Shown here: positions 482 to 3,849 of the stretch, piece after piece
Layout of the letters: every line of letters starts with the position of its first letter
Position numbering within the stretch: position 1 is the first letter of the stretch
Virus record (IMG/VR): IMGVR_UViG_3300029126_000078
Span: 1 to 5,801 of that record
Length of the DNA: 5,801 nucleotides
Direction: 5' to 3' (one strand)
From: a virus
Taxonomy: Duplodnaviria; Heunggongvirae; Uroviricota; Caudoviricetes
The notes under the pieces: model-generated
What the model was told of the DNA's origin: nothing
Seen by the model: only the letters and a program-made list of their open reading frames with translations
Database searches by the model: none
Position numbers and translations under genes: made by a program

Positions 482-1018
482 ATGCGTCGCGCTAACGATC
501 CGCAACGGCGAGAAAAAATTATCCAGGCCACGCTGGAGGCGGTGAAACTTTACGGAATACATGCTGTTACGCACCGCAAAATTGCTACCCTTGCCGGGGT
601 ACCGTTGGGATCGATGACCTACTATTTTTCAGGAATTGATGAGTTGTTACTGGAGGCGTTCAGCAGTTTTACTGAGATCATGTCCCGGCAATATCAGGCA
701 TTTTTTAGCGATGTTAGTGATGCTCCGGGCGCATGCCAGGCTATCACCGATATGATCTACAGCTCACAGGTTGCAACGCCGGATAACATGGAGCTGATGT
801 ACCAGCTCTACGCGCTGGCTAGCCGAAAACCGCTATTAAAAACGGTAATGCAAAACTGGATGCAGCGCAGTCAGCAAACGCTCGAACAATGGTTTGAACC
901 CGGAACCGCCCGCGCGCTTGATGCGTTTATTGAGGGGATGACGCTGCATTTTGTCACCGACCGTAAGCCGCTATCGCGCGAGGAGATTTTGAGGATGGTT
1001 GAGAGGGTTGCAGGGTAG
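482..1018 (+). CDS. rcdA: TetR-family transcriptional regulator RcdA (YbjK), 178 aa
   Basis: Track ORF 452..1018 starts at a TTG. The ATG at 482 is preceded by GAGAGGAAATGAC (Shine-Dalgarno-like, about 7 nt spacing) and gives [49 protein letters not shown]..., with an N-terminal TetR-type HTH. Length and sequence match what I recall of E. coli RcdA. Confidence 0.85.
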
Positions 1019-1037
1019 TAGATAAATTTTAGATAAC

Positions 1038-1063
1038 AAAAAACCCATTTATGTAAACGGGTT
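1038..1063 (-). terminator. Rho-independent terminator (minus-strand orientation) ending the int/cargo transcript
   Basis: Minus-strand RNA reads 5'-AACCCGUUUACAUAAAUGGGUUUUUU-3': a 7-8 bp stem (CCCGUUU/AAAUGGG with one G-U pair), 4-nt loop, then a U6 tract. It lies about 60 bp downstream of the 1122 stop. On the plus strand the stem has a mismatch and no T-tract, so it is a weaker terminator for rcdA. Confidence 0.5.
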
Positions 1064-1067
1064 AATG

Positions 1068-1100
1068 AAAACAATAAGTTAGATTAAAACAATAAGTTAG
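1068..1100. repeat. Tandem 15-bp direct repeat AAAACAATAAGTTAG x2, candidate Int arm-type or att-proximal site
   Basis: Exact copies at 1068..1082 and 1086..1100, 3 bp apart, followed by GTTGGTGGTCAGTGGTGGTT (GGTGGT repeated). Located between the cargo gene stop and the host junction. Confidence 0.4.
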
Positions 1101-1121
1101 GTTGGTGGTCAGTGGTGGTTA

Positions 1122-1844
1122 TTACGGGGTAATGCCAACCGCTGCCGCCACTTTGTCGCCACTAGTGCTTTGTTTTTCGAATTCATCTAAGGCTCTTTCA
1201 ACATCAGAAAGATACTCTTTGAATGAGTTCAAGATCATGCTTAACGAGCCCTCCATAAATAGGACCTGTTTTCCATCTTTTTTAAAAAAATCAGGATATT
1301 TTTCTATAAGTTCAATAATGCTTTTAATATTTTGCCCATCGTTTTCTAAGTATTTTGCATCATTATGCGCACAACTGTTTCTTAATTTTGTTATTTTTTT
1401 GATATTCGAATAGTGGGATGTTGACTTCATCCCTATCATTTTTTTGATAAATAGATGGCTCCTCTCAAATCCACTTCCTTTGAGATCTGAAACATTTATA
1501 GGAGAATGATGTCTATTAGCAAAGTTGTTACAGAATTTTTCTATTTCGTGCTCAAAAATTCCGAATATAGTTAAGAATACTGACCTGCGGATAATACTTG
1601 GGTAGTATTCTAAAAACATTTCATCGAGATCTAGCGATGAGCTGGTGAGTCCCATGTAATGATCAATTGACTGATATACACCATCTTCCGGAGATATTTC
1701 AATTATATATTCTTCAGGTCCTTTGTCTTTATATTCTGCTATACCCTTAGCGATTGATGATTCGCTATGAGTGATTAACGTCTCGATAATATCAAATGTT
1801 AAGGAGAAGTCGAATATTGGGAATTGAAACAAAAACTTAACCAT
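1122..1844 (-). CDS. AT-rich cargo gene; hypothetical protein with Rx4H (HEPN-like) motif, candidate abortive-infection/defence nuclease
   Basis: Track ORF 1122..1877. I prefer the ATG at 1844 (MVKFLFQFP...) because the integrase stop TAA is followed directly by AGGT and a 6-nt spacer (TAAAGGTTCAAGC-ATG), whereas the 1877 ATG has no RBS and lies inside int. The protein contains ...KKITKLRNSCAHNDAKY... (R-N-x3-H) in the C-terminal third. The gene is visibly AT-rich compared with flanking rcdA and int. Confidence 0.6.
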   Translation of the reverse strand: MVKFLFQFPIFDFSLTFDIIETLITHSESSIAKGIAEYKDKGPEEYIIEISPEDGVYQSIDHYMGLTSSSLDLDEMFLEYYPSIIRRSVFLTIFGIFEHEIEKFCNNFANRHHSPINVSDLKGSGFERSHLFIKKMIGMKSTSHYSNIKKITKLRNSCAHNDAKYLENDGQNIKSIIELIEKYPDFFKKDGKQVLFMEGSLSMILNSFKEYLSDVERALDEFEKQSTSGDKVAAAVGITP

Positions 1845-1854
1845 GCTTGAACCT

Positions 1855-2886
1855 TTAAGAATCTGATTTAGTAACATCCAAAGTTGCTAGTGGATTGAAA
1901 CGAAGAGCTGTCTCTAAGTGATCAGGTGATAGATGAGCATAACGCATAGTCATTTTTATGTCGTGATGTCCGAGGATTTTTTGCAAAGCAAGGATGTTTC
2001 CACCCGACATCATGAAATGCGCCGCAAACGTATGACGCAGAACGTGTGTAAGTTGACCGCGAGGGAGCACGATAGACGTTTTTTCCATCACGGATAAAAA
2101 TTGAAAATAGCAGTCTGTGAAGAAATTGAACCCATCAAGCGCCATGATCTCTTCATAAAGCTCTTTACTGATAGGGATGCTTCTGTTTTTCTTCCCCTTC
2201 GTTCTTACAAAGGTAATTCGGTATTTGGTCACCTGTGATCGGGTTAGGTTTATTGCTTCTCGCCAGCGTGCGCCTGTGCTTAAGCATATCTTGACTACCA
2301 GTGCCAGAATTGGGTCCTGACGTTTGCAATCATCCAGCAGTTCAACAATCTGCTCATGGGTAAGCCATGCCATCTCTTTTTCTGCGATGGTGAATTTTCG
2401 CATGTTCTCCAGTGGGTTTGGATACGACCATTCGCCCAGGCGGGATAGTTCGCTAAAAACACTACTTAGATAGCTTTGCTCCAGGTTAATGGTGACCGGG
2501 CTGGCCCCTTTCTTCCATTTCTCGCTGAAGTAGATCTCACCTGTCAGTCGTTTATCTCGATAATGGGCAAACATTTTAGATGTGAGATCGGTTGCAAGGG
2601 GATTGCCCAGAGCGTCAACCATCAGCAGCAATTTGTCATAGACATGCTGCCCAGCAGTCAGAGATTTACCATGTAGTTTGAACCATAGCTCAACCACGTC
2701 TTTCAGGGTTCGACGATCTACTGATTCGCCCAGCCAGGGCTTTGCTTCGGTTTCTTCCATCGTGTGACGCTCAAAAGCCAGTGCTTCGCCTTTGGTGGCG
2801 AATTGTTTACGCACACGACGCCCACTACGTCCGGCGGGGTAACATTCGCAAAGCCATTTTCCTGTGGTGAGTTTTCGTACTGCCAT
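1855..2886 (-). CDS. int: Phage tyrosine integrase, P2 Int-like
   Basis: Track ORF 1855..2964. The start at 2886 (MAVRKLTTGKW...) is preceded by GGAGGG with 8-nt spacing, and the recalled P2 Int N-terminus (MAIKKL...) aligns here. The C-terminal region has ...LSTGARWREA..., ...HVLRHTFAAHFMMSGGNILALQKILGHHDIKMTMRYAHL..., consistent with the tyrosine-recombinase catalytic core (R, H-x-x-R, Y). Confidence 0.9.
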   Translation of the reverse strand: MAVRKLTTGKWLCECYPAGRSGRRVRKQFATKGEALAFERHTMEETEAKPWLGESVDRRTLKDVVELWFKLHGKSLTAGQHVYDKLLLMVDALGNPLATDLTSKMFAHYRDKRLTGEIYFSEKWKKGASPVTINLEQSYLSSVFSELSRLGEWSYPNPLENMRKFTIAEKEMAWLTHEQIVELLDDCKRQDPILALVVKICLSTGARWREAINLTRSQVTKYRITFVRTKGKKNRSIPISKELYEEIMALDGFNFFTDCYFQFLSVMEKTSIVLPRGQLTHVLRHTFAAHFMMSGGNILALQKILGHHDIKMTMRYAHLSPDHLETALRFNPLATLDVTKSDS

Positions 2887-2910
2887 AAAAAATGCCCTCC
2901 AATAGAGAGC

Positions 2911-2939
2911 ATTTTTACTGTATGTATAACCAGTGTCAA
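2911..2939 (-). promoter_or_regulatory. Candidate sigma70 promoter for int (minus strand)
   Basis: On the minus strand: consensus -35 TTGACA (plus 2934..2939), 16-nt spacer, -10 TAAAAA (plus 2912..2917; AAAAAT with a 17-nt spacer). This is about 25 nt upstream of the int RBS. An inverted repeat ATGTATG(2939..2945)/CATACAT(2958..2964) lies immediately upstream. Confidence 0.35.
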
Positions 2940-3072
2940 TGTATGAAATCTTGCGACCATACATCTCACTGAAGCCATAATGAAGTTGGCTATTTTTTGC
3001 TATGTGAGTATGTGACTTTTGCGGTTAGCCTGCGGCTCATTGTTATATTAGGCGCAGATATAAAAGCAAAAA

Positions 3073-3264
3073 TTATCGCGAGTTTTTAGTACAGATTTTT
3101 TTTGATTTACTAATAGTTCCATCATTGCAAACGAACTTTCCATCGGAGGTACAGTGAGAGACACCTCCCTTTTTCCCAGAACAAGGATAATTTTTAGCAT
3201 AGGTAGTTAGTGGGTTTAATAACAAAGAGCATGATAAAACCACAAAAAATACCTTACCAAGCAT
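3073..3264 (-). CDS. Small secreted Cys-containing peptide (63 aa precursor), hypothetical; cargo gene within the cI-int operon
   Basis: ATG at 3264 preceded by GGGAGG with 5-nt spacing, starting 15 bp after the cI stop. N-terminus [23 protein letters not shown] looks like a Sec signal peptide (basic n-region, hydrophobic core, TYA cleavage-type site). Predicted mature part is about 40 aa, Lys-rich, with 4 Cys. The gene is AT-rich. Confidence 0.55.
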
Positions 3265-3279
3265 AGTTTCCTCCCGGTA

Positions 3280-3849
3280 TTACCTAACGTACTTAATTGT
3301 CAAACTTATAATTTTTCCAATTATTTCAACATCTTCTATCTTGCACTCGAAGGTTCTGTTTCCACCTTCAACGAAGATTCTTCCACCGGGTAAACGAGTA
3401 ATGTCGCGGATTGTTATTTCGCCATCAATACTTATTACCCATTTACCATCACGTATATCATCAAATTCTTTATCACAAATAAATTCAGAATTGTTATCTG
3501 TGATGACAAAAGGTTTTTTAAACGTAGAGGGTAGAAATCCCTTATCAAAAATATAAAAACCGTCTTCACGCAAGGCACCATCAGATAATACATATTTAGC
3601 AACTTCCATCGTATTTGTATTACCTGAAGTTTGCTTTGAACCATGTCCAGTTGTGAGCCAATTAAGCGAGGTGCCCGTTTCAAGGGCGCACTGGATTACC
3701 CATTCTGCTGGGAATGAGTCACGCATGTAGCGTGTAGCGAGTGTACTTTTAGAGATTCCTAAATGATCGCACAACGCCTGTCGAGTTTTGAATCCATAAG
3801 CTTCTACCATGCGCTCTATAGCGCCTCGTCCGCCTTTCTCCAAATTCAT
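3280..3849 (-). CDS. cI: Immunity repressor CI, phage 186 type
   Basis: Track ORF begins at a GTG (3855). The ATG at 3849 is preceded by GGAGTGACC (SD with 5-nt spacing) and gives MNLEKGGRGAIERMVEAYGFKTRQALCDHLGISKSTLATRYMRDSFPAEWVIQCALETGTSLNWLTTGHG.... The N-terminal HTH and the CALETG..L.WLLTG.G block match my recollection of 186 CI. It lies directly left of the switch region, transcribed leftward. Confidence 0.85.
   Translation of the reverse strand: MNLEKGGRGAIERMVEAYGFKTRQALCDHLGISKSTLATRYMRDSFPAEWVIQCALETGTSLNWLTTGHGSKQTSGNTNTMEVAKYVLSDGALREDGFYIFDKGFLPSTFKKPFVITDNNSEFICDKEFDDIRDGKWVISIDGEITIRDITRLPGGRIFVEGGNRTFECKIEDVEIIGKIISLTIKYVR

What the first reader, a model, noticed from the sequence alone, without database searches (positions are those of the whole stretch)
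1122..1844. AT-rich cargo gene with an Rx4H (HEPN-like) motif between int and the attachment junction: candidate undescribed anti-phage function
Seen in sequence: a 240-aa ORF translationally coupled to the end of int (TAA-AGGT-6 nt-ATG), with base composition clearly more AT-rich than either the host gene rcdA or the phage core genes, and a C-terminal ...KLRNSCAHND... segment. Established knowledge: R-x(4-6)-H is the catalytic signature of HEPN RNases (Abi2/AbiD-F, RnlA/LsoA, Cas13, Csm6 and others), and prophages commonly carry single-gene abortive-infection modules as morons. Inference: this is a horizontally acquired defence gene expressed from the lysogenic operon. P2 itself has no gene between int and att as far as I recall, so this site may be a cargo slot distinct from the two known P2 hotspots. 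The motif is short and could occur by chance; I cannot assign a named family without a profile search.
Basis: partly seen in the sequence, partly recalled or inferred. Interest (0 to 1): 0.75.

Follow-up and report, generated by a model that had tools for sequence, protein, structure and literature searches.

The report
Untested solo HEPN gene in prophage slot
A 186/P2-like prophage inserted in the E. coli sRNA gene rybB carries, spliced into the very end of its integrase gene, a swappable AT-rich cassette encoding a stand-alone HEPN-type (probable RNase) protein that is most likely an anti-phage abortive-infection gene; this has already been predicted by machine learning but never tested.

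The parts
1122..1844 (-). 240-aa stand-alone HEPN-superfamily ORF (WP_000238243.1), stop codon at 1122-1124
   Evidence: Purifying selection on the body, dN/dS 0.05-0.11. Family of 558 50%-identity clusters at E<=1e-10.
1365..1382 (-). Codons R155-N156-S-C-A-H160, the R-x4-H HEPN signature
   Evidence: Invariant in 27 homologs. Kept in 100% / 96% / 99% of 125 relatives at a median 23% identity.
1530..1601 (-). Codons 82-105: the second conserved block, P82-S-x2-R86-R-S...G-x2-E98-H-E...C105, on the long first core helix
   Evidence: P82 98%, R86 98%, E98 99%, C105 96% conserved. Helix 73-111 in the AF2 model.
1634..1844 (-). Codons 1-70: family-specific N-terminal extension (helix 14-41 with conserved E28, beta-hairpin 44-63) outside the ~148-position HEPN core of PADLOC RTasHEPN; candidate sensor or regulatory module
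   Evidence: AF2 secondary structure. E28 96% conserved. The query's RTasHEPN match covers residues 137-219 only. The sensor role is an inference.
1125..1163 (-). Last 13 codons (SGDKVAAAVGITP): the captured former C-terminus of Int, lying in the attP arm, with two CGCCACT repeats (1146-1152, 1157-1163) that resemble 186 Int arm-type sites
   Evidence: Empty-slot Int ends ...LATLPSGDKVAAAVGITP*. pS 0-0.18 in the tail against 0.70-0.83 in the body. CGCCAYT scan and 186 consensus YAYCGCCAYTY. A similar sequence occurs in the far arm. In P2 the P' arm site lies inside the end of int.
1164..1878 (-). The exchangeable cassette: a new 7-codon Int tail (DVTKSDS, 1858-1878), the int stop (1855-1857), SD and spacer (1845-1854), and the body of the HEPN ORF
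   Evidence: Four-way DNA alignment of the HEPN, empty, HS and REL606 variants shows shared boundaries. GC 33%.
1855..2886 (-). P2/186-type tyrosine integrase; catalytic region intact (…MRYAHL…), extreme C-terminus replaced by the cassette
   Evidence: Pfam Int_N 2.9e-32 and Phage_integrase 5.2e-22. RefSeq CDS. Comparison with XH988 Int.
1042..1063 (-). Intrinsic terminator-like hairpin with T-run ending the int-HEPN transcript; 5' half from the phage arm, 3' half and T-run from the att core (the rybB terminator)
1022..1048 (.). att core shared by both prophage ends; 1035-1048 is the 3'-terminal 14 nt of rybB; phage DNA starts at 1049
   Evidence: Alignments with K-12 attB and with the far prophage end. 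Intact rybB at the far end (Rfam RF00110, 105 bits).

Best explanation
Window 1164-1878 is a mobile cassette (moron) in the int-attP slot of a 186-like (Peduoviridae) prophage integrated in rybB. It encodes a stand-alone HEPN-superfamily protein with no partner gene. The most likely mechanism is as follows. The gene is co-transcribed with cI and int from the lysogenic operon. The protein rests as an inactive oligomer. Infection by another phage activates it, and two R-x4-H motifs brought together across a dimer interface cleave RNA (tRNA or mRNA). Translation stops and the infection aborts, which protects the lysogen population and therefore the prophage. The family-specific N-terminal helix and beta-hairpin module is the best candidate for sensing or autoinhibition. 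Shown here: the gene is real and under purifying selection; it has the HEPN signature and fold; the cassette structure and its insertion inside the end of int; presence/absence polymorphism; repeated exchange at defence hotspots of P2-like phages, P4 satellites and plasmids. Inferred: expression in the lysogen, RNase activity, the RNA target, the trigger, and the defence phenotype. Approximate confidence: HEPN superfamily 0.9; exchangeable cargo 0.95; anti-phage function 0.55-0.6.
Confidence: 0.58

Rival explanations
1. It is a toxin of an addiction or stabilisation module. The HEPN RNase would be held in check by an unrecognised antitoxin (a small RNA, a phage protein encoded elsewhere, or Int/CI) and would kill cells that lose or misregulate the prophage, rather than defending against other phages.
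For: The best structural matches are HEPN toxins of toxin-antitoxin pairs: HepT/SO_3166, 8xdj and 7ae2. The gene sits at the edge of a mobile element.
Against: The 715-bp cassette has no room for a second gene. There is no conserved neighbour across prophage, P4-satellite, plasmid and phage-plasmid contexts, and in particular no MNT-type antitoxin. Most prophages of this type persist without the gene.
Confidence: 0.12
2. It is an RNase that serves the phage's own life cycle or acts as a counter-defence, for example by processing phage or host transcripts after induction or by degrading RNA components of host immunity, rather than excluding other phages.
For: It is placed in the int operon and transcribed together with integration functions. 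HEPN proteins also act in RNA processing (established knowledge: Anantharaman et al. 2013, cited).
Against: It is present in only about 2% of otherwise near-identical prophages. The family also occurs on plasmids and P4 satellites that have different life cycles. DefensePredictor scores it as defence.
Confidence: 0.12
3. It is a non-catalytic HEPN-fold protein (a binding or scaffold role), or has some other function unrelated to RNA cleavage.
For: No family threshold is passed by the query, and fold matches are only moderate.
Against: The catalytic-type residues R, N and H are near-invariant at 23% median identity, together with a conserved acidic residue on the first core helix. That pattern is expected of an active site, not a scaffold.
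Confidence: 0.08
4. It is a member of an RT-associated (UG22/DRT-type) two-gene system that has lost, or is separated from, its reverse transcriptase.
For: 82 of 105 family members match PADLOC RTasHEPN, best E 4.8e-10. UG22 reverse transcriptases are described as associated with a HEPN-like neighbour (PMC9226505).
Against: In the window the neighbours are int and the att site. No RVT-type Pfam domain appears among the called genes flanking six homologs or in the annotations of five plasmid contexts. The query's own match is weak (E 0.007) and covers only the C-terminal half.
Confidence: 0.05

Closest known systems
HepS (Gifsy-1 prophage 'HEPN Solo' abortive-infection protein, PDB 9oik; Sargen et al., Nature 2026, PMC13043305)
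   Different: No detectable sequence relationship: profile searches of PDB sequences at E<=10 do not retrieve it. The motif is at residues 155-160 rather than 100-105. Our family has a distinct N-terminal helix/hairpin and an insert after the motif. The host phage is a P2/186-type myovirus rather than a lambdoid phage. The trigger (tail tip J), the tetramer and the tRNA anticodon cleavage are known for HepS and unknown here.
RiboL-PSP-type HEPN (Pfam PF18735), including PD-T4-2_B of the validated PD-T4-2 system
   Same: Best Pfam match for the query and for 17 of 27 close and 17 of 105 distant members (best E 4.2e-8), on the R-N-x3-H helix. DefensePredictor's HHblits names PD-T4-2_B as the nearest known defence protein (probability 78.4, coverage 0.33).
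   Different: The query scores 17.1 bits against a 28.4-bit cutoff, and only about 50 residues align. The PADLOC scan listed no PD-T4-2 model for the query at E<=1. PD-T4-2_B is the 'B' component of a named system, whereas this gene has no partner.
RT-associated HEPN (PADLOC RTasHEPN; UG22-type UG/Abi reverse-transcriptase systems, PMC9226505)
   Same: Sequence-level similarity of the HEPN core in 82 of 105 family members.
   Different: No reverse transcriptase lies next to the gene here or in the sampled contexts. The family carries an extra ~70-residue N-terminal module. UG22 systems are themselves uncharacterised.
AbiD/AbiF (Pfam Abi_2), lactococcal single-gene abortive-infection proteins
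   Same: Single-gene Abi proteins with a HEPN R-x4-H motif. Weak hits to Abi_2 (9 of 27 members) and to phrog_2158 'abortive infection resistance protein'.
   Different: Below threshold (14.7 vs 25.6 bits). Different length and N-terminal architecture.
HepT-MntA and other HEPN-MNT toxin-antitoxin pairs
   Different: About 130-aa minimal HEPN domains that are always paired with an MNT antitoxin. No such neighbour exists here.
int-att defence hotspot of P2-like phages (PMC13586616, 2026); Orf69 of phage 186
   Same: Same genomic slot. The paper reports 3% of P2 defence systems between int and att. Phage 186 has an unrelated 83-aa gene there, within the lysogenic operon.
   Different: In what I could read of the paper (main text only; no supplementary files are held), it neither names this protein nor describes the insertion inside the int 3' end and the capture of the Int tail.

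Membership tests
HEPN superfamily | R-x4-6-H motif, usually with a polar residue (N/H/D) after R, conserved across the family | tested here: met
   R155-N-x3-H160. Invariant in 27 homologs. Kept in 100/96/99% of 125 relatives at a median 23% identity.
HEPN superfamily | All-alpha up-down helical bundle core | tested here: met
HEPN superfamily | Metal-independent RNase activity from a composite dimeric active site | not testable with these tools
   No multimer prediction or model coordinates were available. Needs biochemistry.
Pfam HEPN_RiboL-PSP (PF18735) | Score at or above the gathering threshold (28.4 bits) | tested here: not met
   The query scores 17.1 bits, E 0.0055, over residues 141-188 only. 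Some distant relatives reach E 4.2e-8.
Pfam HEPN_Cthe2314 (PF18730; the name UniRef gives the protein) | Significant match to the family model | tested here: not met
   Not listed for the query at E<=1. 1 of 27 and 2 of 105 members match, best E 0.0015.
Pfam Abi_2 (AbiD/AbiF) | Score at or above the gathering threshold (25.6 bits) | tested here: not met
   14.7 bits, E 0.038.
UG22/DRT RT-associated HEPN system (PADLOC RTasHEPN) | HEPN protein matching the model | tested here: inconclusive
   Query E 0.007, but 82 of 105 relatives match at E<=0.01, best 4.8e-10.
UG22/DRT RT-associated HEPN system (PADLOC RTasHEPN) | Adjacent UG/Abi reverse transcriptase gene | tested here: not met
   The neighbours are int and the att site. 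No RVT-type domain appears in the sampled contexts.
HepS family | Detectable sequence homology to HepS | tested here: not met
HepS family | Solo prophage HEPN gene with no partner | tested here: met
   Cassette with a single ORF. No conserved neighbour.
HEPN-MNT toxin-antitoxin | Adjacent minimal nucleotidyltransferase antitoxin | tested here: not met
   No second ORF in the cassette.
P2-like int-att defence hotspot (PMC13586616) | [quoted passage not shown] | tested here: met
   Literature.
Validated anti-phage defence system | Experimentally shown protection against phage | not testable with these tools
   There is only an ML prediction (log-odds 10.4). The family's motifs are absent from the tested tables S6-S8.

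The most novel reading that the evidence does not exclude
The gene founds a widespread family of self-contained single-protein HEPN abortive-infection systems, independent of HepS. The family has 558 50%-identity clusters at E<=1e-10 and is found in P2/186-like prophages, P4 satellites, phage-plasmids and conjugative plasmids. Its own N-terminal helix/hairpin module would sense a phage component and unlock an R-x4-H RNase. It spreads as a cassette that splices into the 3' end of int, right at the edge of the functional attP.
Probability: 0.4. Interest if true: 0.55.

Novelty: new member of a known kind. Interest (0 to 1): 0.4.

Why it matters
If the gene is confirmed as a defence gene, it would add a second, sequence-unrelated family of solo HEPN defence proteins on prophages. 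Only HepS has been worked out mechanistically so far. It would also provide a compact 240-aa protein for studying how a single polypeptide both senses infection and restrains a toxic RNase. The cassette anatomy is useful in its own right. It shows at single-base resolution how cargo is exchanged in the int-att slot of P2/186-like phages: the insertion lies inside the last codons of int and is bounded by the Int arm-type sites. This explains why the slot's left boundary is fixed and why the ORF carries a passenger tail. It also warns that automated prophage boundaries and protein-family alignments will treat that tail as part of the protein. The practical value is modest, because the kind of gene, the slot and the prediction are all already in the literature.

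Tried and rejected
1. NCBIfam gave no family for the protein. 2. tblastn against 50,697 deposited phage genomes found no match, so the gene is known only from prophages, IMG/VR contigs and plasmids. 3. Sequence and profile searches of the PDB with A1 and A3 found nothing relevant, only a designed coiled coil at E 1.3. 4. Foldseek against the PDB was not significant, the BFVD viral library returned only uncharacterised proteins, and afdb50 was unavailable. 5. Rfam found no RNA family anywhere in the window, so nothing supports an RNA antitoxin or sRNA in the cassette. 6. I first took E. coli HS and CFT073 for empty attB sites because window 1100-1166 matched them. That was wrong: they carry related prophages with different cargo. 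K-12 provided the true attB. 7. I suspected that the att junction lay inside the ORF and that host DNA encoded the tail. That was also wrong: the junction is at 1048/1049, and the tail is phage DNA derived from int. 8. The 'Putative HEPN' of Rousset et al. (pFR103, a P2 locus, no activity found) is an unrelated DUF4209 protein of more than 400 aa, so it is not a negative result for this family. 9. The genome-contig scan with the broad alignment A3 failed for lack of a conserved stretch, and the A1 scan gave only 9 loci. 10. The promoter scan was at background level, 5 found against 5.4 expected, and no internal promoter is claimed. 11. The HS 89-aa cargo, the REL606 110-aa cargo and 186 Orf69 have no significant Pfam family and no similarity to each other or to the HEPN protein. 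12. Model coordinates are not exposed, so spatial clustering of the conserved residues could not be measured.

Full report

Yes. The minus strand of window 1122-1844 holds a 240-aa ORF. RefSeq annotates it identically as WP_000238243.1, "hypothetical protein".

A longer 251-aa reading from ATG 1877 is possible. All homologs begin at MVKF, which supports the start at 1844.

The cassette is 33.0% GC. By comparison int is 46.5%, rcdA 51.6% and the early lytic genes 48.8%.

KLRNSCAHND is at residues 153-162. As a single occurrence the motif is weak:
- 0.20 R-x4-H are expected from composition alone.
- 19% of shuffles contain one.
- Only 0.7% of shuffles contain RN-x3-H.

**2. Is it a real gene, and is the motif meaningful?**

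A search of 5.8 billion proteins gave 40 close relatives. None carries a precomputed Pfam domain, and all are named "hypothetical" apart from one automatic UniRef HEPN label. An exhaustive profile search of 1.84 billion cluster representatives gave 2,126 hits at E<=1e-3 and 558 at E<=1e-10. Nearly all are stand-alone proteins of 220-240 aa.

In 27 close homologs R155, N156 and H160 are invariant. So is a second block, P82-S-x2-R86-R87-S88 ... G95-x2-E98 (H99 and E100 are near-invariant) ... C105.

In 125 full-length relatives with a median of only 23% identity to the query, conservation is:

| Residue | Conserved in |
|---|---|
| R155 | 100% |
| H160 | 99% |
| E98 | 99% |
| R86 | 98% |
| P82 | 98% |
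| N156 | 96% |
| E28 | 96% |
| C105 | 96% |

Against the 75-95% identical copies, the gene body has dN/dS of 0.05-0.11 with synonymous sites saturated. The ORF is therefore a functional protein with an active-site-like constellation of conserved residues.

**3. Which fold and family?**

The query passes no curated threshold, but every weak hit is a HEPN family and lands on the R-N-x3-H helix:
- Pfam: HEPN_RiboL-PSP (E 0.0055, 17.1 bits vs a 28.4-bit cutoff), Abi_2, DUF3644.
- PADLOC: HEC-01A, RTasHEPN, Cas13a.
- PHROGs: phrog_21382, unknown function (2.7e-9), and an Abi phrog (0.0026).

Scanning every family member strengthens this. RiboL-PSP HEPN matches 17/27 and 17/105 members (best 4.2e-8), with scattered hits to pEK499_p136, MAE_28990, AbiU2, Apea and Cthe_2314 HEPNs. 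PADLOC's RT-associated HEPN model matches 82/105 members (best 4.8e-10).

AlphaFold2 with the family alignment gives a confident model, pLDDT 86.5 and pTM 0.81. Its elements are:
- an N-terminal helix (14-41) and beta-hairpin (44-63);
- a helical core (73-111, 125-137, 145-161, 200-236);
- a small insert after the motif.

Conclusion: this is a HEPN-superfamily protein from an uncurated family. It is nearest to the RiboL-PSP-type and RT-associated HEPNs, and it has a family-specific N-terminal module of about 70 residues.

**4. Where does it sit?**

*Integration site.* The window is one end of a prophage of about 33 kb with 186-type gene order: cI, apl, cII, fil... Dam methylase, replication endonuclease, and ogr at the far end. 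K-12 has the sRNA gene rybB directly after rcdA. The window matches K-12 up to 1048 and then diverges. The far end of the prophage carries an intact rybB (Rfam RF00110, 105 bits). The att core is about 27 nt (1022-1048) and includes the last 14 nt of rybB.

*Slot states.* Window 1049-1163 is phage arm DNA shared with about 1,134 E. coli genomes that carry this prophage type. Only 25 of those have the HEPN gene. A spread sample of 60 records shows four states:

| State | Span | Examples |
|---|---|---|
| Empty slot (roughly two thirds of sampled rows) | ~839 bp | XH988 |
| Unrelated 89-aa gene | ~1,192 bp | HS, CFT073 |
| Unrelated 110-aa gene | ~1,319 bp | REL606 |
| HEPN gene | 1,550 bp | 25 genomes |

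Sources. P2 has nothing in this slot. Phage 186 has a further unrelated gene there, Orf69.

**5. New anatomical point: the cassette is inside int.**

In the empty-slot phage, Int ends ...NPLATLPSGDKVAAAVGITP*. Its stop codon is the same one that ends the HEPN ORF here. In the window, Int ends ...NPLATLDVTKSDS* and the HEPN protein ends ...KQSTSGDKVAAAVGITP*.

So the cassette (about 1164-1878) brought a new Int tail, a stop codon, an SD and the HEPN gene. The HEPN ORF then reads in frame into Int's orphaned last 13 codons.

Only the copies with at least 73% identity carry this tail. More distant relatives end about 15 residues earlier.

The tail evolves as backbone DNA and not as protein. Its pS is 0-0.18, against 0.70-0.83 in the body, and its dN/dS is about 1 in most pairs where it can be computed.

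The tail contains two CGCCACT repeats 11 bp apart (1146-1152 and 1157-1163). A near-identical sequence occurs in the far arm. The 186 Int arm-type consensus is YAYCGCCAYTY. In P2 the P' arm Int site lies inside the last codons of int. The left boundary of the slot is therefore probably set by the edge of the functional attP. That last step is an inference.

**6. Mobility and company.**

Of 39 related loci from IMG/VR, GTDB genomes and metagenomes, 27 have the gene directly after a P2/186-type int. The identities are discordant: 47-48% HEPN copies sit beside 88-93% Int, and a 75% HEPN copy sits beside a 39% Int. This indicates repeated cassette exchange.

Sister prophages carry KAP NTPase, SNIPE/T5orf172 or PIN_12 genes in the adjacent cI-int slot or elsewhere. 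Other contexts for family members are:
- a P4-like satellite hotspot next to DUF4238, a validated Rousset system;
- an IncHI2 plasmid island with an S-4TM effector and an Abi-family protein;
- an SSU5-like phage-plasmid, Pantoea and Vibrio plasmids, and Leptospira plasmids.

No neighbour is conserved across these contexts, and the cassette has no room for a second gene.

**7. Mechanism.**

Shown: everything in sections 1-6.

Inferred from established knowledge: HEPN domains are RNases whose R-x4-6-H motifs pair across a dimer interface (Anantharaman et al. 2013). HepS shows that a solo, constitutively expressed prophage HEPN can be inactive by default, sense a phage protein and cleave tRNA anticodon loops (PMC13043305). 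In 186 the pL/pE lysogenic operon reads cI-int-Orf69 and is annotated to terminate beyond attP.

Here the 10-nt gap with an SD after int, and the terminator-like hairpin at 1042-1063, fit a cI-orf63-int-HEPN transcript. That hairpin is built from the phage arm plus the rybB-derived core.

The best explanation is therefore a lysogen-expressed, default-off HEPN RNase that aborts superinfection. The rivals are a TA-like addiction toxin, a phage-serving or counter-defence RNase, a non-catalytic HEPN, and an orphaned RT-associated HEPN. They are scored in the structured fields.

**8. What is already known?**

- UniRef already names the exact protein "Cthe-2314-like HEPN domain-containing protein", although my scan does not support that particular family.
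- DefensePredictor (Science 2026, PMC13092281) Table S10 lists a 240-aa protein whose cluster representative is WP_000238243.1. It has a mean log-odds of 10.42 against a stringent cutoff of 4, and it is labelled "Predicted novel defense gene". Its nearest known protein is PD-T4-2_B (RiboL-PSP HEPN), at coverage 0.33 and probability 78.4.
- The family's motifs are absent from that paper's tables of tested systems. A full-text search for the accession found no paper. The "Putative HEPN" tested by Rousset et al. is an unrelated DUF4209 protein.

The defence idea is therefore published as one untested line among 1,041 predictions. I did not find the cassette anatomy (insertion in int, captured tail, arm-site boundary) described in any of the papers I read.

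**9. Verdict.**

This is a new, uncharacterised member of a known kind: a single-gene HEPN abortive-infection-type cargo in a prophage hotspot. Interest is 0.4. It is a good, cheap experimental target with a clear catalytic-mutant design, but it would not surprise a specialist.

Noticed in passing
window 1022-1063; L022 3508-3586: The prophage is integrated in the 3' end of the sRNA gene rybB. The far end keeps an intact rybB, rebuilt with the phage-borne core (Rfam 105 bits). The window end keeps only the last 14 nt of rybB (1035-1048). Together with phage sequence AACCCGTTTACATAA, those 14 nt form a new terminator-like hairpin for the int-HEPN transcript.
   Followed up: yes
window 1068-1082 and 1086-1100: Two identical 15-nt direct repeats (AAAACAATAAGTTAG) 18 bp apart, between the att core and the Int-tail arm sites. 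By analogy with the Apl/Cox and IHF sites annotated at this position in 186 and P2, they may be excisionase or IHF binding sites.
   Followed up: no
window 3073-3264 (-): A 63-aa ORF with an N-terminal signal-like hydrophobic segment and four Cys, 35% GC, lies between cI and int. It matches NCBIfam PRK10040.1-2 (4e-34) and phrog_6000, both of unknown function. Sister prophages hold KAP NTPase, SNIPE/T5orf172 or large unknown genes at the same cI-int position, so int is flanked by two cargo slots.
   Followed up: partly
window 1858-1878 (-): All three cargo-bearing variants (HEPN, HS, REL606) have replaced Int's last ~14 residues. The HEPN-bearing and HS/CFT073-type variants are found integrated at rybB in many different strains. 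The extreme C-terminus of this Int therefore seems dispensable, or at least tolerant of replacement.
   Followed up: partly
L042 4004-5720 (Enterobacter chinensis): A 75%-identical HEPN copy, complete with the SGDKVAAAVGITP tail, sits 17 nt after an integrase that is only 39% identical to the window's Int. The cassette plus tail has apparently moved between integrase lineages.
   Followed up: no
L020 4869-6687 (Raoultella ornithinolytica, P4-like satellite): A 41% homolog lies 125 bp downstream of a DUF4238 gene on the same strand, between the P4 primase and a SymE toxin/RhuM region. Whether DUF4238 and the HEPN protein act together there is unknown.
   Followed up: no
L006 3146-6012 (Klebsiella IncHI2A plasmid): A 32% homolog is tightly flanked on the same strand by a TPR-repeat protein (28 bp upstream) and a 437-aa hypothetical protein (42 bp downstream). 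This may be a three-gene operon variant of the family.
   Followed up: no
window 1000-3300: Terminator-like hairpins are over-represented: 9 found against 1.7 +/- 1.4 in shuffles. They include one on the sense strand inside the HEPN ORF (1640-1621) and one antisense (1415-1433). Their significance is unknown, and they may reflect local base composition rather than function.
   Followed up: no
window 2887-2964 (-): The int ORF can be extended 26 codons upstream to ATG 2964. RefSeq and the homologous Int proteins start at MAVRKL (2886).
   Followed up: partly
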